Positions 21,513 through 64,000 are shown, counted from the first letter of the stretch. The stretch is DNA of 64,000 nt from the human T2T-CHM13v2.0 reference genome, Homo sapiens (GCF_009914755.1 NC_060938.1), one strand, 5' to 3'. The notes: generated by a model not told the origin, from the sequence alone. Numbers and translations: made by a program.

Positions 21513-25218
<3,706 letters not shown>

Positions 25219-43698: not shown

Positions 43699-44742
43699 TG
43701 TTTTGATTGTTGTTCCCGTCTCTTCTATCAGCACATCTTTAATTGAAACTGTAGAAGCTGGGGGCACCAAAATACTATGTGAAGTAAATGAATTCAGAGA
43801 GAAAACGTCCACAGAAAAAAAAATCCTTGATATGAAAGTTGCTATAAGCTGCACTGGTAAAATAACTTTCATAGTTAGAGCAACTGTTAACCATTCATTT
43901 AACACAGTGATACACTATAGTGAATAGACTAGTGAATGCAGACAACAAACAACTCTATTAATATGCAAAGATACCGAGAAACTTATTCTGGGAAGTGGTT
44001 GGTTTGGTAAGGCAAAATGAGAAGGCAGACCTTTAAAAAAATAAGTAAGATAGACAAAAATCCTGTTGAATCCACACCACTTCCTTTAGGGACATTGACT
44101 ATTAAATCCAGTGGTCACAACAGACACTAAATTTGTTCTGGGGTACAAGTTCTAGAAGTGAATATTGATCAAGGCTTCTAAATGATTTTTATTTACTTTC
44201 AAATGTAGATCAATGGAATAGAATAGCTAGTCTATCCCATCTCTTTGACTAATAACAGACATAGATTCTGACAATCACCATTGTTTTAGTCAATAATTAC
44301 AGGGAAACTGAAATATGGCTCCAAGTTTATATAGTGTAGCATAAATTTGAAAGCAATATAAAATAAGACATTCAGAAGAAAAAGGGCAGAACACAATAAA
44401 TCAGGAAAAGGAATAATAACAACAGTTAATCAAAGAAATATTTGTTGAACACTTTCTATATTCAAAAGCTACATGTTAACTTTTTAAGTACATTATTTAT
44501 GTTATTCCTCTCAACAATGTAAGGGAGATGGCATTAGCCTTACCTCATTGGAGATTAAAAAAAGAAGAAAAAAAGCTTAGAGATATTTTCCATTGTTATG
44601 CGGCTAGAAAACTAGGTAGTAGGCAATTAAACTGACTCTAATTCCAAGTTCTTTCAATATAATAACTTAACTTTAATGTAATAGTTTTCTTATTCTATTT
44701 AATATAGAAACAATAGGTTCAACAATTATAGCCCAGGGTGCC

Positions 44743-45257
44743 TATGATGGATAATATTGAGTGTCAACTTGATTTAATTGAAGGATGCAAAGTATTGTTC
44801 CCGGGTGTGTCTGGGAGGGTGTTGCCAAAGGAGATAAACATTTGAGTCAGTGGGCTAGGAGAGGCAGACCCACCTGCAATCTGGGTGGGCACCATCTAAT
44901 CAGCTGCCAGTGCAGCCAGGATAAAAGCAGGCAGAGGAACTTGAAAAGACTAGACTGGCTGAGTCTTCCACCCTCCATCTTTCTCCCATATTGGATGCTT
45001 TCTGCTCTCAAATGTCAGACTCCAAGTTCTTCAGCCTTTGCACTCTTGGACTTACAGCAGCGGTTTGCTAGGGGCTCTCAGGCCTTTGGCCACAGACTGA
45101 AGGCTGCACTATTGGCTTCCCTACTTTTGAGGTTTTGGGACTTGGACTGGCTTCCTTGCTTCTCAGTATGCAGATGGCCTATTGTGGGACTTCACCTTGT
45201 GATCGTGTGAGTCAATACTCCTTAATAAACTCCCCTTCATATATATATATATATGTG

Positions 45258-45309
<52 letters not shown>

Positions 45310-45342
45310 GAGAGAGAGAGAGAGAGAACCCTGATTAATACT
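44743..45342 (+). mobile_element. MLT2A2-type HERV-L LTR (left end of composite)
   Basis: TATGATGG..GAGTGTCAACTTGAT start, internal (TA)(TG)(GA) microsatellite, GAGAACCCTGATTAATAC end; preceded by GTGCC. Confidence 0.88.
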
Positions 45343-45347
45343 GATTT

Positions 45348-45365
45348 TGGTACCAGAAGTGAGGT
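45348..45365 (+). other. 18-nt PBS / copy complementary to the tRNA-Leu(UAA) 3' end
   Basis: TGGTACCAGAAGTGAGGT 5 nt after the LTR; not followed by HERV-L leader. Confidence 0.75.
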
Positions 45366-45990
45366 ATTAGTCCATTCTCATGCTGCTATAAAGAACTGCC
45401 CAAGACTGAGTAAATTATGAAGGAAAGAGGTTTAATTGACTCACAGCTCCGCGAGGCTGGGGAGGCCTCAGGAAACTTAAGACTGTGGCAGAAGGGGAAT
45501 GTGATGGTTAATACTGAATGTCAACTTGATTGAAAAATGCAATGTATTGATCCTGGGTGTGTCTGTGAGGCTGTTCCCAGAGGAGATTAACATTTGAGTC
45601 AATGGGCTGGAGAAGGAAAACCCACCCTTAATCTGGGTGGGCACCATCTAATCAGCTGCCAGTGCTGCCAAAATATAAAGCAGACAGAAAAAAAAAAATT
45701 TGAAAAGGCTAGACTGGCTTAGCCTCCCAGCCTACATCTTTCTCTCATGCTGGATGCTTCCTGCCCTCAAGCATCAGACTCCAAGTTCTTCGACTTTGGG
45801 ACTCGAACTGGCTTCCTTGATCCTCAGCTTGCAGATGGAGTATTGTGGGAGCTTGTGATTGTGTGAGTTAATACTACTTAATAAACGCTCATATCCACAT
45901 ATATATCCTATTAGTTCTTTCCCTCTAGAGAACCCTGATTAATACAGCTTTTGGTATTGGGAGTGGTTCTAGAGGAACAGAATATTAAGG

Positions 45991-47680
45991 ATGGAGTTCT
46001 TTCGTTGGTTTTGGGGTTTCTGGAGTTGGCTGCTTAACATGATTAGACCAAAATATGCTAAGGACTCTATTTCTAATAGTATGGAGAACACTGATAGTCC
46101 TTGGCATGAACTGTTTAGAGAGTTATGCAAAATAAATGCATTTGACACTCCTGATTCACTGCTCACGAGAGGCAAAGAGTTCAGTGATTCTATACACAAT
46201 AACTTTGACTTATGTGGAGAACCAAGGAATATAACGAAGTTTGTTGGTTGCTCCTAAGTTCACCGGACCAAAGTGGTGAAAGGAAATTATGAACTCAGGC
46301 ATTCTAACTCCCAACTTCAGAAGCAGATACTGAGCTTCAAATCTGCTAAGATTGCCCTGAGGGACAGTCTTATCTCCTGTAGAGAAAGAGCTGAAATTGT
46401 GGAAAAACAGACACAAGCTCTTATTATGCTAGTGGCTGACCTGCAATGAAAGGTGCATGCACAGCCTCGCCAGGTGTCTACTGTTAAACTGAGGGCATTG
46501 ATTGAAAAAGAATGGAACCCTGCAACTTGGAATGGGGATGATGTAGGAGCACCCTGATAAAGCTGAGGACACTGAGCTTGTAAACTCTGATAAGCCCTTT
46601 TTTTTCCAGAAGAAACAGCTTCCCCATCCCCAGTAGTGGCAACATCCTCTCCCCAATCCATGCTGCCATCAGCCTTTCCACCTTTGTCTGAGAAGATAAA
46701 CCCTGTGCTGCCTGAGGCAACAGTGATAGCCTCCCCTGAGGCAGTTGCCAGGCAAGATAATATTTATTCTCCTAAGGAGCCACCCCCAACACCCCTGTTT
46801 GCTTCTAGACCTATAACTAAAGTCCCATTAGGCCCCTAGAGGTGAAGTTCAGAGTGTGACCCTCATGGGTCACACTCTACAATTGAAAAGAACTGCTTGA
46901 GTTTTCTAATTTATATAAGCAGAAATGTGGAGAAGAGGCATGAGAATGGATATTAAGTGTGTGGGATAATGGTGGAAGAAACATAGAGTTAGATCAGGCT
47001 GAATTTACGGATTTGGGCCCACTAAGTAGGGACTCTGCTTTTAATGTTGCAGCTCAGAGAGTTAAAAAATGTTCTGATAGTTTATTTGCTTGCTTAGCTG
47101 AAATATGGATTAAAAGATGGCCCACTGTGAGCAAGCTGGAAATGCCTCATCTCCCCTGGTTTAATGCAGAGAAAGGAATCCAAAGGCTTAGGGAGATTGG
47201 GGATGGTGGAGTGGATTATTCACTTTAGACCTATTCATCCCAGCTGGGAGGGTCCAGAAGATATACCCTTGACCAATGCTTTGCAAAATAGGTTTGTGAA
47301 GGCAGCACCTGCATCTTTGAAGAGCTGTGTAATTGCTCTTCTCTGCATGTCAGATCTAACAGTGGGAACTGCAGTCATTCACTATTAAATTTAAATACAA
47401 TGGGAATAATTGGATCCCAAGGTGGCAGGGGCCAAGTGGAGGCACTCAGCTATCAAAGATAAGGGGGGCATAGCTACCATAATGGACATCAGAGGCAAAG
47501 CAGCAATCAGAATAGTGTGACTCATGTAGAGCTCTGGCATTGGCTAATTAATCATGGTGTTCCTGGAAGTGAAATTGATAGGAAGCCTACTGCATTCCTA
47601 CTAAATTTATATAAGCAAGCAGAAAGCTTCCTGGACAAATGGACAAAAGACTAACTAGAATTATAAAAACAGAGAATAAT
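45991..47680 (+). pseudogene. gag: HERV-L gag (fragmented)
   Basis: ORF fragments 45991..46257, 46636..46839, 46959..47228, 47164..47388 (DSPWHELF, WDNGGRNI). Confidence 0.8.
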
Positions 47681-47879
47681 GGCCCCTCAATCAGTTTCTA
47701 GACTTGAGCCAGTTTACAGACCCAGAACCTCTTGAATTAAGGGGAGGCCGGGTCCCCTTAAAGAAGGACCCCATTACGTTACCGACAATTTATGCCATTA
47801 ATCTTTCTCCCATCCTTCCCCAAGCAGACCTCCGGTCTTTTACCCAGGTAATTGTTCACTAGGGAAACAGAAATGATAA

Positions 47880-50800
47880 GACATTTCAGAGACTACTGAA
47901 CACTGGCTCTGAGCTGACATTGATTCCAGGGGACTCAAAATGTCATTGTGGTCCTCCAGTTAAAGTAGGGGCTTACGGAGGTCAGGTAATTAATGGAGTT
48001 TTAGCTCAGGTCTGGCTTACAGTGAGTCCAATGGGTCCCCAGACTCATCCTGTGGTCATTTTTCCAATGCCAGAATACATAATTGGTACGGACATACTCA
48101 GCAGCTGGCAGAACCCCCACATTAGCTCCCTCACTGGTAGGGTGAGGGCTACTATGCTAGGAAAAGCCAAATGGAAACCATTAGAGCTGCCTCTACCTAG
48201 AAAAATAGTAAATTAAAAACAATATCACACTCCTGGAGGGATTGTAGAAATTAGTGTCACCATCAAGGACTTGAAAGATTTCTACCACATCCCCATTCAA
48301 CTCTGCCGTTTTGCCTTTGCAGAAGACAGATGGATCTTGGAGAATGACAGTGGATTATTTTAAGCTTAACCAAGTGGTGATTCCAATTGCAGCTGCTGTA
48401 TCATGTGTGGTTTCATTGCTTGAGCAAATTAACACATCTCTTGGTACCTGGTATGCAGCCACTGACTGGGAAAATGCCTTTTTCTCCATTCCTGTACATA
48501 AGGCCCACCAGAAGCAATTTGCCTTCAGCTGGCAAGGCCACCAATATACCATGACTGTCCTACCTTTGGGATACATCAACTATCCAGCTTTGTGTAATAA
48601 TCTTATTTGGAGAGAACTTGATCGCTTTTCACTTCTGCAAGATATCACACTGGTCCATTACGTTGATGATATTATGCTGACTGGATCCAGTGAGTGAGAA
48701 ATAGCAAACACACTGGACTTATTGGTGAGACATTTGCATGCCAGAGGATGGGAAATAAATTCGACTAAAGTTCAGGGACTCTCTACCTCACTAAAATTTC
48801 TAGGAGTTCAGAGGTGTGGGGCCTGTCAAAATATTCCTTCTAAGGTGAAGGATAAGTTGCTGCATTTGGCCACTCCTACAGCCAAGAAAGAGGCCCAATG
48901 CCTAGTGGGCCTGTTTGGATTTTGGAGGCAACACATTCCTTATTTGGGTGTGTTACTCCAGCCCATTTATCAAGTGACCCGAAAGGATGCCAGTTTTGAG
49001 TGGGGTCCAGAACAGGAGAAGGCTCTGCAACAGGTCCAGGCTGCTGTGCAAGCTACTCTACCACTTGGGCCACATGACCCAGCAGATCCAATGGTGCTTG
49101 AGGTGTCAGTGGCAGATAGGGCTGCTGTTTGGAGCCTTTGTCAGGCCCCCATACGTGAATCACAGCAAAGACCTCTAGGAATTTGGAGCAAGTCACTGCC
49201 ATCTTCTGCAAATAACTACTCTCCTTCTGAGAGACAACTCGGCCTGTTGCTGGGCTTTGCTGGAAACCGAATGTTTGACTACGGGCCATCAAGTCACCAT
49301 GTGACCTGAACTGCCTATCATGAACTGGGTGCTTTCTGGCCTATTGAGCCATAAAGTGGGTCATGCACAGCAACATTCCGTCATCAAATGGAAGTGGTAT
49401 ATACATGATGGACTTGAGCAGGTCCTGAAGGCACAAGTTAAGTTACGTGAGGAAGTGGCTCAAATGCCCATGGTCTCCACTCCTGCCACCCTGCCTTCTC
49501 TCTTCCAGCTGGGGAGTTCTTTATGATCAGTTGACAGAGGAAGAGAAGGCTAGGGACTGGTTCACAGATGGTTCTGCGTGATATGAAGGCACCACCCAAA
49601 AGCGGACAGCTGCAGCACAACAGCCCCTTTCTAGGATATCTCTGAAGAACAGTCATGAAAAGAAATCTTCCCAGTGGGCAGAACTGTGAGCAATGCACCT
49701 GTTTGTGCACTTTGCATAGATAGAAAAATGCCCAGATGTGCAATTATATACTGATTCATGGGCTGTAGCCAATGGTTTGGCTGGATGGTCAGGAACTTGA
49801 AAGAAGCATGATTGGAAAATTGGTGACAAAGAAATCTGGGGAATAGGTATGTGGATAAACTTCTCTGAGTGGTCAAAAACTGTGAAGATATTTGTATCCC
49901 ATGTGAGTGCTCACCAATGGGTGACCTCAGCAGAGGAGGATTTTAATAATCAAGTGGACAGGATGACCCATTCTGTGGATACCACTCAGCCTTTTTTCCC
50001 AGCCACCTCTGCATCCACCCAATGGGCCCATGAACAAAGTGGCCATGGTGGCAGGGATGAAGGTTTCGCATGGGCTCATCAATATGGACTTCCACTCACC
50101 AAGGCTGACCTGGCTACAGCCACTGCTGAGTGCCCAATTTCCCATCAGCAGAGACCAACACTGAGGCCTCAATATGGCACCATTCCTCAGGGTGATCAGC
50201 CAGCTACGTGGTGGCTGGTTGATTATATTGGACCTCTTCATGGAAAGGGCAGAGGTTTGTTCTCACTGGAACAGATATTTACTCCAGATATGAGTTTGTC
50301 TATCCTGCATGCAATGATTCTGCCAAGACTACCACCCATGGACTCACGGAATGCCTTATCCACCGTCATGGTATTCCACACAGCATTGCCTCTGACCAAG
50401 GCACTCACTTTATGGCTAAAGAAGTGCAGCAGTGGGCTCATGGTCACGGGATTCACTAGTCTTACCATGTTCTCCATCATCCTGAAGCACCTGGATGCAT
50501 CTGGTTGTGCACTTTGCATAGAAGGAAAAACGCCCAGATGTGCGATCTGATAGATCTGATAAGCATCTGATAGAATGGTGGAATGGCCTTTTGAAGTCAC
50601 AATTACAATGCCAACTAGGAGACAATAATTTGCAGGGCTGGGGCAAAGTTCTCCAGAAGGCCGTGTATGCTCTGAATCAGCATCCAATATATGGTACTGT
50701 TCCTCCCATAGCCAGGATTCATGGGTTCAGGAATCTAGGGGTGGAAGTGAAAGTGGCATTACTCACCATCACCCCTAGTGATCCACTAGCAAAATTTTTG

Positions 50801-51214
50801 CTTCCTGTTCCCACAACATTATGTTCTGCTGGCCTAGACGTCTTAGTTCCAGAGGGAGGAATACTGCCACCAGGAGACACAACAATGATTCCATTAAACT
50901 GGAAGTTAAGATTGCCACCTGGACACTTTGGGCTCCTCCTACCCTTAAGTTAGCAGGCTAAGAAGGGAGTTACAGTATTGGCTGGGGTGATTGACCCAAA
51001 CCATCAAGATAAAATCTGTCTACTATTCCACAATGGAGGTAAGGAAGAGTATGCGTGGAATACAGGAGATCCATTAGGGTGTCTCTTAGTATTATCATGC
51101 CCTGTGATTAAGGTCAATGGGAAACTACAAGAGTCCAATCCAGGCAGGACTACAAATGCCCCAGACCCTTTAGGAATGAAGGTTCGGTTCACTCCACCAG
51201 GAAAAAAACCATGA
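47880..51214 (+). pseudogene. pol: HERV-L pro-pol (protease, RT, RNase H, integrase) and dUTPase-like region, disrupted
   Basis: LLNTGS (catalytic D changed to N), WRMTVDY, YVDD at about 48659, WFTDGS, VDYIGPL, PPGHFGLL / GVIDP; many stops and frameshifts; no env. Confidence 0.88.
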
Positions 51215-51652
51215 CCTTCTGTGGTGCTTGCTGAAGGAAAAGGGAATACAGAATAAGTAGCAGAAGAAGGTAGTCATCAATACCAGCTATGACCACGTGA
51301 CCAGTTGCAGAAACGAGGACTGTAATTGTCATGAATATTTCCTACTTCTTTTGTTTAAAACATGCTTGTTCAAGTAAATACTTGTACTAAGAAAATATCT
51401 TCAATTTATTTCCTTTTCTTATCATGTGACATAATATTTGTTGACTTCATATCAGGATTTCAGTATTGTTAACTCTATGTAACAGCATTTGGGTTGGGGA
51501 TTGGTGCATTTCCAGTTGTATGAAGGATAGCTGTATTATCTTAGGCATACTCATGACCTTATTATTGTCTTTATTTGAAGATTATATACGCTCTCAGGAG
51601 ATGTGTATGGGTTCAGGTTGACAAGGGGTGGATTTGTGATGGTTAATACTGA

Positions 51653-51714
<62 letters not shown>

Positions 51715-54518
51715 CCTATGAGTTCTCTCTAGAGAACCCTGACTAATACAGGGAAGCAAACACATTCTTCTTCACATGGTGGCAGGAAGGAGGAGTGCTG
51801 AGCAAAAGGGGAAAAGCCCCTTATAAAACCATCATATCTCATGAGAACTCACTCACTATCACAAGAACAGCAGCATGTGGTTAATCACCCCCATGATTCA
51901 ATTACCTCCCCCCAGGTCCCTCCCATGACACATGGGGATTATGGGAACTACAATTCAAGATGAGATTTGGGTGGGGACACAGCCAAACCATATTATTCCA
52001 CTCTTGGCCCCTCCCAAATCTCATGTCCTCACATTTCAAAACACAATCATGCCTTTCCAACAGTCCCCCAAAGTCTTAATTCATTCCAGCATTAACCCAA
52101 AGTCCAAATCCAAAGTCTTACCTGAGACAAGGCAAGTCCTTTCCATGTATGAACCTGTAAAATCAAAAGCAAGTTAGTTACTTCCTAGATATAATGGAAG
52201 TACAGACATTGGGTAAATACACCTGTTCCAAATGGGAGAAATTGGCCAAAACAAAAGGGCTACAGGCCCATGCAAGTCCAAAATCCAGCAGGGCAGTCAA
52301 ATCTTAAAGCTCTGAAATGATCTCCTTTGATTCCATGTCTCACATCCAGGTCGCACTGAGACAAGAAGTGGGTTCCCATGGCCTTGGTCAGCTGTGCCCT
52401 GTGGCTTTGCAGGGTACATCCCTCTTCCCGGCTGCTTTCATGAGCTGGTATTGAGTGTCTGCAACTTTTCCAGGTGCACAGTGCAAGCTATCGGTGATCT
52501 ACCATTCTGGGGTCTGGAGGACAGTGGCCCTCTTCTCATAGCTCCACTAGGCAGTGCCCCAGTGGGGACTCCATGTTGGGGCTCCAACCCCACATTTACC
52601 CTCTGCACTGCCCTAGCAGAGGTTCTCAATTAGGACCACACCCCTGCAGCAAAATTCTGCCTGGACATCCAAGCTTTTCCATACATCCTCTGAAATCTAG
52701 ACAGAGGCTCCCAAACCTCAATTCTTGACTTCTGGGCACCTGCAGGGTCAACACCACATAGAAGCTGCCAAGGCTTGGGGCTTGCACCCTCTTGAGCCAT
52801 GGCCTGAGCTACACCTTGGCTGCTTTTAGCCATGGCTGGAGCTGCTGGGACACAAGGTACCAAGTCCCTAGATTGCACACATGGGCCTGGCCCATGAAAT
52901 GATTTTTATTCTCCTAGGCCTCCAGGCCAGTGATGGGAGGAGCTGCCCACAAAGGTCTCTGACATGCCCTTGAGACATTTTCCCCATTATCTTGGAGAAG
53001 AACATTTGGCTCCTTGTTACTTGTGCAAATTTCTACAGTAGGCTTGAATTTCTCCTCAGAAAATGGGTTTTTCTTTTCTATCGCATTGTTAGGCTGCAAA
53101 TTTTCCAAACTTTTACGCTTCGCTTCCCTTTTAAACATAAGTTCTAATTCCAAACCATATCTTTGTGAATACATGAAACTGAATGCTTTTACTAGCACCC
53201 AACTCACATCTTGAATGCTTTGCTGCTTAGAAATTTCTTCTGCCAGATATCCTAAATTATGTCTCTTCAGTGATCTGTAGGGCAGGGGTAAAACACTGCC
53301 AGTCTCTTTAATAAAACATAGCAAAAGTCACCTTTATTTCAGTTCCCAACAAGTTCCTTATCTCCATCTGAGACCACCTCACCCTGGACTTCATCATCCA
53401 TATCATTATCAGCCTTTTAGTCAAAGCCATTCAGTAAGTCTCTAGGAAGTTCCAAACTTTCTCACATCTTTCTGTTGTCTTCAGAGCTTTCCAAACTGTT
53501 CCAACCTCTGCCTGTTACCCAGTTCCGGTCACTTCCAAGTTTGGGGTATCTTTACGGTAGTGCCCCACTCCCAGTACCAATTTACTGTACTAGTCCATTC
53601 TGATGCTGCTACAAGAACTTCCTGAGACTACGTAAGCTATAAAGGAAAGAGGTTTAACTGACTCACAGTCCTGCAGGGCTTGGAAGGCCTCAGGAAGCAA
53701 ACATGTTCTTCTTCACTTGATGGCAGGAAGAGGAAGTGCTGAGCAAAGGGAGAAAAGTCCCTTATACATCCATGATCTCCTGAGACCTCACTCGCTAACA
53801 TGAGAACAGCAGCATGGGAGTAATCAGCCCCATAATACAATTACCTCCCACTGGTTCCTTCCACAACACCTGGGGTTTATGGAAACTACAATGCAAAATG
53901 AGATTTTGGTGGGGACACAGCCAAACTGTATTAGTGCCCAATGCCACAAAAGCTAGACAGTATTTGGAGCAAATGCTAAATTGTCTTCCTAGCAATTATA
54001 CGGAAATGAGTAATATGGTTATTTTAGGGATACATAAAGAAAAGATTAAAGTAGGGATCATTTAACACCTTTAATGAACACTTTTCATGAAATAAGGAAA
54101 GATAATTGCCAAGTCTACTAACGTCTCAAACAAATAGAAAAAAAGTTATAAACAATTATCAGGTAACTGAAGAGTCAAAGTACCCTAGGCCAATAGGAAG
54201 AAGTACAAAAATATAACTGAACAAAGAGGAATATATATTCACTACAGAAGCCAGTAATCTCTGTTTAAAACATTTCTCATTTTCTAAGATTTCAATCATA
54301 TTACTTTCACACTTAGAAACAATTTTGACATTTTATAATAAGAAAAACAAGGCAGTAATCAAAACAAAGTGGAAGACTAGAGTAGAAAGAAGTTACTACT
54401 CTAGAAATCTCCTAGATTTAATGGAACAATCACAAAACCACTTTGAGTGTGGTAATAATTTAAGTATGATAATAATAGAAAGAGTATTATTTTTGTGGTT
54501 TTAAAAGAGGTATATAGA

Positions 54519-56904
<2,386 letters not shown>

Positions 56905-62638: not shown

Positions 62639-64000
<1,362 letters not shown>

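What the first reader, a model, noticed from the sequence alone, without database searches (positions are those of the whole stretch)
44738..53938. Chimeric HERV-L LTR / THE1D element apparently integrated as one unit (single GTGCC TSD)
Seen: GTGCC (44738-44742) directly precedes an MLT2A2-type HERV-L LTR. After the LTR and PBS no HERV-L leader follows; the sequence joins the U5 end of an antisense full-length THE1D, overlapping by GT at 45364-45365. The far end of THE1D is followed by GTGCC (53934-53938) and then unique DNA. THE1D has no matching TSD of its own (AGTGA or GTGAG vs GTGCC). The 5-bp TSD therefore brackets a hybrid whose two outer ends are U3 ends from two different families. Established: MaLRs such as THE1 lack pol and are thought to use ERV-L enzymes; both make 5-bp TSDs. 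Inference: a HERV-L cDNA intermediate and a THE1D cDNA were joined before integration, a possible fossil of co-packaging and trans-mobilisation.
Basis: partly seen in the sequence, partly recalled or inferred. Interest (0 to 1): 0.85.

Follow-up and report, generated by a model that had tools for sequence, protein, structure and literature searches.

The report
Inverted HERV-L/THE1 hybrid, one insertion
A HERV-L end piece (LTR plus primer-binding site) is fused head-to-head to a complete THE1 element and the pair is bracketed by one 5-bp target duplication, which looks like a fossil of both retroelements being copied and inserted together.

Summary
GTGCC (44738-42) abuts the first base of a long MLT2A-type LTR (44743-45342). 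Then come the GATTT spacer and an 18-nt tRNA-Leu(TAA) primer-binding site (45348-65, 16 of 18). No HERV-L leader follows. The sequence runs into the U5 end of an antisense full-length THE1, sharing GT at the joint. THE1's other end (53933) is followed at once by GTGCC and single-copy DNA. THE1 has no duplication of its own. A full-length HERV-L (45500-51750, own duplication GGGAA) was inserted into it later.

Best reading (about 0.78): one integration event that used two U3 ends. The HERV-L part has the extent of plus-strand strong-stop DNA.

New support: the same genome holds at least 21 sense chimeras with a long MLT2A LTR, the PBS and then THE1 internal sequence. Four of the eight fetched end in a THE1 3' LTR, and three of those four have 4/5 duplications. 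This is the product expected if HERV-L strong-stop DNA lands on THE1 DNA.

The empty site in outgroups could not be checked. This is a new variant of known complex LTR insertions. Interest is moderate to high.

The parts
44738..44742 (.). Left copy of the 5-bp target-site duplication, GTGCC
   Evidence: Read directly. It lies directly before the first base of LTR-A. The left flank 44343-44742 is single copy in the genome.
44743..45342 (+). LTR-A: a complete long-form MLT2A-type (HERV-L) LTR. It starts TATGATGG and ends ...CCCTGATTAATACT. It includes a (TA)n(TG)n(TA)n(GA)n microsatellite at 45240-45327.
   Evidence: It is 87-89% identical over about 496 nt to the 39 other top genomic copies. 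It carries about 93 nt (45041-45133) that LTR-B lacks. Start and end agree with 10 solo long-type LTRs.
45343..45347 (+). Spacer GATTT between the LTR end and the PBS
   Evidence: Most of the 29 full-length HERV-L 5' ends show the same GATTT spacer, or a one-letter variant of it.
45348..45365 (+). 18-nt primer-binding site TGGTACCAGAAGTGAGGT. The HERV-L part ends here; the last GT is shared with THE1.
   Evidence: It matches the complement of the tRNA-Leu(TAA) 3' end plus CCA at 16 of 18 positions. No leader follows, unlike 29 of 29 HERV-L 5' ends.
45364..45499 (-). THE1 3' LTR, U5-proximal 136 nt (antisense). The first family base T is absent or replaced by G at 45363.
   Evidence: 9 of 9 family copies start TGTATTAG. 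p-distance to the THE1 5' LTR is 0.174.
45495..45499 (.). Left copy of GGGAA, the duplication of the nested HERV-L
   Evidence: Uninterrupted THE1 copies read ...GAAGGGGAAGCAAAC.
45500..51750 (+). Nested full-length HERV-L provirus, a later insertion. LTR-B is at 45500-45946. Then come the spacer, a PBS-like site and the leader, broken gag-pro-pol with a dUTPase-like stretch, and LTR-C at 51635-51750, which is mostly replaced by (CA)n(TA)n.
   Evidence: Pfam gives RVT_1 at 8.7e-15, RT_RNaseH_2 at 4.2e-8, and dUTPase at 8e-4, below its cut-off. The leader is 91-94% identical to 39 other proviruses.
51751..51755 (.). Right copy of GGGAA
51756..51995 (-). Rest of the THE1 3' LTR (antisense), ending ...CCAAACCATATTA
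   Evidence: p-distance to the 5' LTR is 0.170.
51996..53585 (-). THE1 internal region (antisense). A purine-rich tract lies next to the 3' LTR. The reverse-complement PBS is at 53562-53579 (TGGTACTGGGAGTGGGGC in sense) and the spacer at 53580-85.
   Evidence: It is about 80% identical to another THE1 internal region (L011) and to the internal regions of the sense chimeras.
53586..53933 (-). THE1 5' LTR (antisense). Its U3 terminus forms the right outer end of the hybrid.
   Evidence: 11 of 11 family copies end at the same column.
53934..53938 (.). Right copy of the 5-bp duplication, GTGCC
   Evidence: The right flank 53934-54333 is single copy and unlike any ERV-L or MaLR leader.

Best explanation
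One integration event inserted a two-part DNA whose two outer ends were both U3 termini.

The left part is U3-R-U5, the spacer and the 18-nt PBS of a long-LTR HERV-L. That is exactly the extent of plus-strand strong-stop DNA made double-stranded. The right part is a finished THE1 cDNA in the opposite orientation. It is joined at its U5 terminus, trimmed to about the integrase cleavage site, through a 2-nt GT overlap.

An ERV-L-type integrase then inserted the hybrid by its two TG...CA ends and made the 5-bp duplication GTGCC. A full-length HERV-L later landed in the THE1 3' LTR.

Shown: the anatomy, the duplication, the absence of separate duplications, and the absence of HERV-L sequence beyond THE1.

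Inferred: how the two parts were joined. My split of the 0.78 is as follows.
- About 0.45: the free 3' end of HERV-L strong-stop DNA primed on the 3' end of the THE1 plus strand inside a particle holding both.
- About 0.15: the two cDNAs were joined by host end joining before integration.
- About 0.18: one intasome held a U3 end from each of two separate cDNAs, and the free ends were joined during repair.
For: 1. GTGCC matches 5 of 5 at both outer ends. The expectation is 0.0016 for two random 5-mers of the window, and 0.0005 for GTGCC itself.
2. 5-bp duplications are the rule for this LTR type. Of 10 solo long-type LTRs, 5 are perfect and 2 are 4/5. The nested HERV-L has GGGAA on both sides.
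3. Both outer ends sit at the exact family termini.
4. The HERV-L part stops at PBS position 16-18, whereas 29 of 29 proviruses continue into a leader. A random break in a provirus of about 6 kb would fall there about 1 time in 2000.
5. THE1 starts within 1-3 nt of its U5 terminus and has no duplication of its own: AGTGA, GTGAG or GAGGT against GTGCC.
6. The right flank is single copy and is not a leader. No second long-type LTR lies in the window.
7. The PBS 3' end is a hotspot of odd junctions elsewhere. Of 20 loci fetched with an LTR end, the spacer and a tRNA-like PBS, 5 join the PBS to pol at a GAGTGGGGT homology, 1 continues in antisense HERV-L, and 4 continue in other sequence.
8. Independent sign of shared particles: 20 other loci plus the query locus carry a long MLT2A LTR end, the PBS and a THE1 leader (40 scored of 4417 candidates). 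All 8 fetched have the long LTR followed by THE1 internal sequence in sense. Four of the 8 end in a THE1-type 3' LTR, and 3 of those 4 have 4/5 duplications. The chance of 3 of 4 at 4/5 or better is about 1.5e-5.
9. Both elements use the same tRNA-Leu PBS.
10. Divergence does not separate the two parts. The terminal branch is 0.078 for LTR-A, and 0.141, 0.095 and 0.047 for the THE1 LTR pieces.
Against: - No outgroup or empty site could be read, so the contiguity of the two flanks is assumed.
- It is a single locus. Two searches for the same junction elsewhere found only the window itself, apart from one chance hit.
- The two THE1 LTRs are no closer to each other (K2P about 0.20) than to unrelated copies, and the 5' LTR branch is about twice that of the 3' LTR. 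That they come from one reverse transcription is therefore not shown.
- The A at PBS position 10 is a common lineage variant, so the PBS letters do not show copying from the tRNA.
- The age test has little power. LTR-B, which must be younger because it is nested, has a branch of 0.10.
Confidence: 0.78

Rival explanations
1. THE1 alone made the GTGCC duplication in an ordinary insertion. A HERV-L LTR+PBS cDNA fragment was later captured by end joining at a break lying exactly between the left GTGCC and THE1's first base. The capture could also have happened during repair of the same integration.
For: This reading explains the 5/5 match without chance. LTR+PBS units followed by unrelated DNA and lacking a duplication do exist; L085/L089 has GGCCC against TTTTG. 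Host-mediated joining of viral DNA ends, in either orientation, is documented for HIV and ASLV vectors (PMC5041404, passages read).
Against: The break must fall within about 3 nt of the THE1 end. The captured piece must keep its exact U3 first base and lose no base of GTGCC. LTR element ends with a 3-nt window make up roughly 0.1% of the genome, which is my own estimate and not a tool result. With tens of such fragments genome-wide, far fewer than one such coincidence is expected.
Confidence: 0.12
2. The GTGCC match is chance. THE1 inserted into a HERV-L provirus just after its PBS. The rest of the provirus was then lost, either by a deletion or by recombination between this THE1 and another THE1 downstream.
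For: THE1 lacks its own duplication, as proviruses rearranged by recombination do. Its 5' LTR is unusually diverged and does not group with its 3' LTR, which would fit an LTR that comes from another copy.
Against: This needs three independent coincidences: the 5-mer match (0.0005-0.0016), an insertion within 2 nt of the PBS end, and a deletion or crossover that leaves the THE1 terminus exact. No HERV-L sequence lies to the right. The distance between the two THE1 LTRs is the same in both halves (0.174 and 0.170), so there is no sign of a mosaic LTR.
Confidence: 0.07
3. The arrangement is an assembly artefact or a rearrangement private to this assembly.
For: None was found.
Against: The parts are about 8-14% diverged from their relatives and carry an old nested provirus. 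The junctions are clean and lie at retroviral landmarks.
Confidence: 0.01

Closest known systems
Complex LTR-retrotransposon insertions made by template switching and inserted as one unit (Sabot and Schulman 2007, PMC1950507; abstract and Results read)
   Same: Two parent elements are fused with no host DNA between them. A single 5-bp duplication flanks the pair. The structure is read as one reverse-transcription and integration event in a particle holding two RNAs.
   Different: Those complexes are same-family, same-orientation LTR-int-LTR-int-LTR with matching outer LTRs. Here the parts come from two families (autonomous ERV-L and pol-less MaLR) and lie head to head. One part is only LTR+PBS, and both outer ends are U3 ends.
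Aberrant retroviral integrations with one integrase-made end (Varadarajan et al. 2016, PMC5041404; passages read)
   Same: The viral DNA end can be truncated and joined to further viral DNA in either orientation. Host enzymes can finish the job.
   Different: In those cases the second junction is not made by integrase, so no regular duplication is expected. Here the 5-bp duplication is perfect and both outer termini are intact.
Sense HERV-L/THE1 chimeras seen here (L094, L098-L104)
   Same: They have the same long MLT2A-type LTR, spacer and tRNA-Leu PBS, followed by THE1 sequence with no THE1 5' LTR. They were inserted as units, with 4/5 duplications in 3 of the 4 complete copies.
   Different: THE1 lies in sense and lacks its 5' LTR, as expected from an ordinary plus-strand transfer onto THE1 minus-strand DNA. 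In the window THE1 is complete and inverted. My searches found no description of these chimeras, and the MaLR history paper PMC10735291 does not mention HERVL or MLT2. The subscription literature and the notes in repeat libraries were not searchable.
PBS insertions at 2-LTR circle junctions and strand-transfer deletions in retroviral vectors (recalled, not read here)
   Same: LTR ends carry the 18-nt copy of the tRNA, and strong-stop DNA primes at wrong sites by short homology.
   Different: Those are products of one virus in cell culture. This is a germ-line fossil that joins two families.

Membership tests
Hybrid LTR element inserted in one integration event | A duplication of the family's length (5 bp) directly outside both outer ends | tested here: met
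   GTGCC lies at 44738-42 and at 53934-38. A 5-bp length is confirmed in 5 of 10 solo long-type LTRs and for the nested HERV-L.
Hybrid LTR element inserted in one integration event | Outer ends are intact LTR termini usable by integrase (TG...CA) | tested here: met
   The boundaries fall at the family's first and last columns. Today's letters are TA... and ...TA, each one transition away from the family's TG and CA.
Hybrid LTR element inserted in one integration event | The components have no duplications of their own, and no host DNA lies between them | tested here: met
   The PBS runs straight into the THE1 U5 end with a GT overlap. AGTGA, GTGAG or GAGGT do not match GTGCC, and GATTT does not match GTGCC.
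Hybrid LTR element inserted in one integration event | The empty site in outgroups shows one copy of the duplicated 5-mer and adjacent flanks | not testable with these tools
   Only this assembly is held. Both flanks are single copy, so there is no paralogous empty site.
Template-switch complex of the Sabot-Schulman type | Same orientation, a shared inner LTR, and outer LTRs alike | tested here: not met
   The parts are inverted and the outer LTRs belong to different families.
Plus-strand strong-stop DNA product | U3-R-U5, the spacer and exactly the 18 nt copied from the tRNA primer, with nothing beyond | tested here: met
   The HERV-L homology ends at PBS position 16-18. The next bases are THE1 and not the tRNA-complement continuation TCGAAC.
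Plus-strand strong-stop DNA product | The PBS letters follow the tRNA rather than the parent genome | tested here: inconclusive
   The end GAGGT resembles the tRNA-type GGGGT and not the GGTTC of 29 of 29 young HERV-L. However, many genomic copies carry GGGGT, and the A at position 10 is a common lineage variant.
Ordinary nested insertion of THE1 into a HERV-L provirus | The inner element has its own duplication and the host element resumes on the far side | tested here: not met
   There is no matching 5-mer. The right flank is single copy and unlike any leader.
HERV-L (ERV-L) 5' LTR region | An MLT2A-type LTR with a 5-nt spacer and a tRNA-Leu PBS | tested here: met
   The subfamily name MLT2A2 is recalled and not tested.
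Full-length THE1-type MaLR | Two LTRs, a tRNA-Leu PBS after the 5' LTR, a purine tract before the 3' LTR, and a short internal region without pol | tested here: met
   Subfamily D was not tested. That the two LTRs come from one copy is not shown.

The most novel reading that the evidence does not exclude
The inverted hybrid in the window and the 21 or more sense chimeras (MLT2A LTR, PBS, THE1) are fossils of particles that held both HERV-L and THE1 nucleic acids. If so, they are direct physical evidence that long-LTR HERV-L machinery reverse-transcribed and integrated THE1-type MaLRs. Heterologous strong-stop transfer at the shared tRNA-Leu PBS would then have been frequent enough to leave a countable class. 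Its census would date and name the helper of each MaLR wave.
Probability: 0.5. Interest if true: 0.75.

Novelty: new variant of a known kind. Interest (0 to 1): 0.62.

Why it matters
MaLRs make up about 4% of the human genome (PMC10735291, Introduction passage) and have no polymerase. That ERV-L supplied their enzymes is an old inference from likeness (recalled: Smit 1993). It is not a demonstrated link, and the 2023 history of primate MaLRs does not mention HERV-L at all.

A DNA whose two integrase-made ends belong to the two families would place both cDNAs in one complex at one moment. So would chimeras whose 5' LTR is HERV-L and whose body and 3' LTR are THE1.

That turns the helper question into something that can be counted in genomes: which MLT2 LTR types are fused to which MaLR subfamilies, and when. 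The locus also records rare by-products of reverse transcription that are otherwise known mainly from cell-culture vectors.

Tried and rejected
- **Right flank as a HERV-L or other ERV-L leader, hidden by THE1 insertion: rejected.** The flank is single copy. It has no similarity to the nested HERV-L or to 14 post-PBS leaders.
- **Paralogous empty site: none.** Both flanks are single copy.
- **Other copies of the same junction: none found.**
  - The DNA search across the junction found only the window itself.
  - L009 is the normal reverse-complement PBS beside an antisense THE1 5' LTR. L011 is a chance look-alike with no MLT2 LTR upstream.
  - The degenerate pattern of PBS end plus THE1 end hit the window and one unrelated place, with one hit in the control.
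- **'The PBS was copied from the tRNA, not from the genome': dropped as evidence** after one search showed that many genomic copies carry the tRNA-type end and the A at position 10.
- **Dating the two parts against each other: no power.** All LTR terminal branches fall between 0.05 and 0.14, including the certainly younger LTR-B.
- **L085/L089, an LTR+PBS unit with its own duplication: not supported** (GGCCC against TTTTG).
- **L083: not a chimera.** It has a different, older LTR type with a MaLR-like leader.
- **3' end of chimera L094: not reached.** It runs into L1-like sequence, and the next 3 kb hold no THE1.
- **Technical failures.** Earlier findings of the scan were not open.
Full report
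**What is there**

Reading the window and comparing it with itself gives the following order on the + strand.
- GTGCC, 44738-42.
- A complete long MLT2A-type LTR, called LTR-A here, 44743-45342. It holds an expanded microsatellite at 45240-45327.
- The spacer GATTT, 45343-47.
- An 18-nt primer-binding site, 45348-65.
- An antisense THE1-type element:
  - its 3' LTR is split into 45364-45499 and 51756-51995;
  - its internal region is 51996-53585, with the reverse-complement PBS at 53562-79;
  - its 5' LTR is 53586-53933.
- GTGCC, 53934-38.
- Single-copy DNA up to a young L1-like insertion at about 54514.

The split in the THE1 3' LTR is a full-length HERV-L (45500-51750) with its own duplication, GGGAA (45495-99 and 51751-55). 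Pfam finds reverse transcriptase, an RNase H-like domain and a weak dUTPase match in it. Its leader is 91-94% identical to 39 other proviruses.

**Are the boundaries exact?**

- LTR-A start. Of the 39 other genomic copies scored, 36 begin at query positions 59-65, where the LTR start is 61.
- Solo LTR controls. Ten long-type solo LTRs begin TGTGATGG-like and end ...AATACA-like. Five of the ten keep a perfect 5-bp duplication and two keep 4 of 5.
- THE1 U3 end. The antisense THE1 U3 terminus ends at the same column in 11 of 11 family copies.
- THE1 U5 end. The antisense U5 terminus reads TGTATTAG in 9 of 9 copies, while the window has GGTATTAG.
- PBS. A human tRNA-Leu(TAA) gene was located and read. 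The complement of its last 18 nt with CCA is TGGTACCAGGAGTGGGGT, and the window's PBS matches at 16 of 18.

The HERV-L homology therefore ends at PBS position 16-18. The G at 45363 is PBS-like and not THE1-like, and GT at 45364-65 is shared by both parts.

All 29 full-length HERV-L 5' ends examined continue after the PBS into ...TAGAGGAACAGAATATT.... The window does not.

**Is the duplication chance?**

Two random 5-mers of this window are identical with probability 0.0016, and GTGCC has frequency 0.0005.

THE1's own flanks (AGTGA, GTGAG or GAGGT against GTGCC) do not match. Neither do LTR-A's own flanks (GTGCC against GATTT).

The right flank is single copy. It has no similarity to the nested HERV-L. 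It scores like shuffled sequence against 14 different post-PBS leaders, whereas true leaders score 49-56 against each other. THE1 therefore does not sit inside a HERV-L provirus whose body resumes to the right.

**Best explanation**

A hybrid with two U3 outer ends was inserted once. Each rival needs several independent coincidences.
- A later capture of an LTR+PBS fragment must fall within about 3 nt of the THE1 end and keep every base on both sides.
- A nested insertion followed by a deletion or an ectopic THE1-THE1 crossover needs three things: the 5-mer match by chance, an insertion exactly at the PBS end, and an exact THE1 terminus.

The extent of the HERV-L part (LTR, spacer, 18-nt PBS) is that of plus-strand strong-stop DNA. 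This rests on established retroviral reverse transcription: plus-strand synthesis copies the LTR and then 18 nt of the tRNA primer, and stops at the modified A58.

The THE1 end lacks the 6-nt spacer that an unprocessed cDNA end would carry. It stops within 1-3 nt of the CA, as a 3'-processed end would.

The reading I prefer is that orphan HERV-L strong-stop DNA paired its terminal GT with the AC near the 3' end of a finished THE1 plus strand and was extended along it. I cannot separate this from host end joining before integration, or from an intasome that held one U3 end from each of two cDNAs and was followed by joining of the free ends.

**Independent support found on the way**

A pattern made of the LTR end, the spacer and the tRNA-type PBS has 221 matches in the genome with up to three mismatches, against 0 for the control. 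I fetched 20 of them:

| What follows the PBS | Loci | Count |
|---|---|---|
| Normal HERV-L leader | L072, L074, L075 | 3 |
| MaLR-type leader | L073, L076, L078, L082, L083, L086 | 6 |
| HERV-L pol at window 49007, joined through the homology GAGTGGGGT | L069, L070, L071, L080, L087 | 5 |
| Tandem array of U5 end plus PBS | L079 | 1 |
| Antisense HERV-L internal sequence | L081 | 1 |
| Other sequence | L077, L084, L085, L088 | 4 |

The 3' end of the PBS is thus a repeated site of illegitimate joining.

One of the six MaLR-leader loci, L078, has an MLT2A-type LTR end followed by a THE1 leader. I searched the genome with 201 nt across that junction. Twenty other loci cover it fully, at 76-88% identity; only 40 of 4417 candidates were scored.
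- All eight loci fetched (L094, L098-L104) have a long MLT2A-type LTR, 72-86% identical to LTR-A. The PBS follows and then THE1 internal sequence in sense, with no THE1 LTR upstream.
- Four of the eight are complete and end in a THE1-type 3' LTR.
- Three of those four have duplications matching at 4 of 5: AGCAC/AGAAC, GTCTC/GTCTT and AAGTG/AAGTA. In the fourth the 3' end is degraded.
- The other four stop early or are interrupted.

This is the product expected when HERV-L strong-stop DNA anneals to the PBS complement of THE1 minus-strand DNA, which is possible because both use the same tRNA-Leu. An element with unlike LTRs should not reproduce itself faithfully, so I infer that the copies are repeated independent events. 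That inference was not tested.

**What speaks against, or stays open**

- No outgroup could be read.
- The window's inverted junction is unique in the searches I could run.
- The two THE1 LTRs are as far from each other (K2P about 0.20) as from unrelated copies. The 5' LTR has roughly twice the terminal branch of the 3' LTR: 0.141 against 0.095 and 0.047 for the two pieces.
- Divergence cannot order the insertions. LTR-A has a branch of 0.078, and the certainly younger LTR-B has 0.10.
- The subfamily names are recalled and were not tested.

**Known relatives and novelty**

Complex same-family insertions with one duplication are described in grasses (PMC1950507, Results read). Aberrant vector integrations with extra viral DNA in either orientation are described for HIV and ASLV (PMC5041404, passages).

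My searches for a HERV-L/THE1 hybrid or for heterologous-LTR chimeras found nothing on this subject. The 2023 study of primate MaLR history places THE1D in simians only and never mentions HERVL or MLT2 (PMC10735291, abstract and passages). Subscription journals, repeat-library notes and supplements were not seen.

I class the finding as a new variant of a known kind.

**Verdict**

The single-unit reading is supported at about 0.78. Interest is 0.62, which is raised by the chimera class, because that class makes the MaLR helper question countable.

Noticed in passing
L094, L098-L104 (G000 C15:98.55 Mb, C7:31.09 Mb, C21:20.75 Mb, C4:106.24 Mb, C2:81.07 Mb, C12:82.26 Mb, C2:92.13 Mb, C11:21.65 Mb): This is a class of sense chimeras: a long MLT2A-type 5' LTR, the spacer, the tRNA-Leu PBS, THE1 internal sequence and a THE1-type 3' LTR. 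In one search, 20 other loci plus the query cover the junction. All 8 fetched show it, 4 are complete, and 3 of those 4 have 4/5 duplications. It may deserve a report of its own.
   Followed up: partly
L069, L070, L071, L080, L087 against window 49007-49116: In five loci the PBS (...GGAGTGGGGT) is joined directly to HERV-L pol at the matching GAGTGGGGT, which removes about 3 kb of gag-pro-RT. This is either one amplified deletion derivative or repeated mis-transfer of strong-stop DNA.
   Followed up: partly
L090, L081, L091, L092 (G000 C22:34.976-34.979 Mb): The locus has an internally deleted LTR and a PBS. These are followed by antisense HERV-L internal sequence (about 1808 back to 645) and then sense internal sequence from about 3719, with an Alu-like insert. 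It is a provirus rearranged at the PBS end.
   Followed up: partly
L079 (G000 C19:16,035,633-16,035,875): Tandem repeats of a unit of about 75 nt made of the LTR U5 end, the spacer and the PBS.
   Followed up: no
window 53586-53933 against 45364-45499 and 51756-51995: The THE1 5' LTR has about twice the terminal branch of the 3' LTR (0.141 against 0.095 and 0.047). The two LTRs do not group together in the tree. This is unexplained.
   Followed up: partly
window 51635-51750: The 3' LTR of the nested HERV-L keeps only its first 20 nt and its last 50 nt or so. The middle is replaced by (CA)n(TA)n. LTR-A carries a microsatellite expansion at the homologous place (45240-45327).
   Followed up: no
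window 49693-49744 and 50495-50546: A 52-nt direct repeat (88% identity) lies inside the nested HERV-L pol region, so a stretch is duplicated into the integrase part.
   Followed up: no
window 54514-56000, 22471-23956 (minus strand), 62692-64000: Three L1-like pieces in the window are about 96% identical to one another. They are young insertions, and one starts 580 nt to the right of the hybrid.
   Followed up: no
L077 (G000 C5:63,506,498-63,506,665): An MLT2-type LTR end and PBS are followed by TCAAACCAAC..., which loosely resembles the continued complement of the tRNA (TCGAACCCAC...). This may be read-through past the usual stop. It was judged by eye only.
   Followed up: no
L073, L076, L082, L084, L086, L088: MaLR-type LTR ends (identified by eye) carry the same ...ACA GAT(TT) spacer and tRNA-Leu PBS as HERV-L.
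   Followed up: no
L055 and L060 (G000 C23:89.15 Mb and C24:3.96 Mb): The HERV-L 5' LTRs on contigs 23 and 24 are almost identical, with terminal branches of 0.001 and 0.008. This fits a recent duplication or shared region between those two contigs.
   Followed up: no
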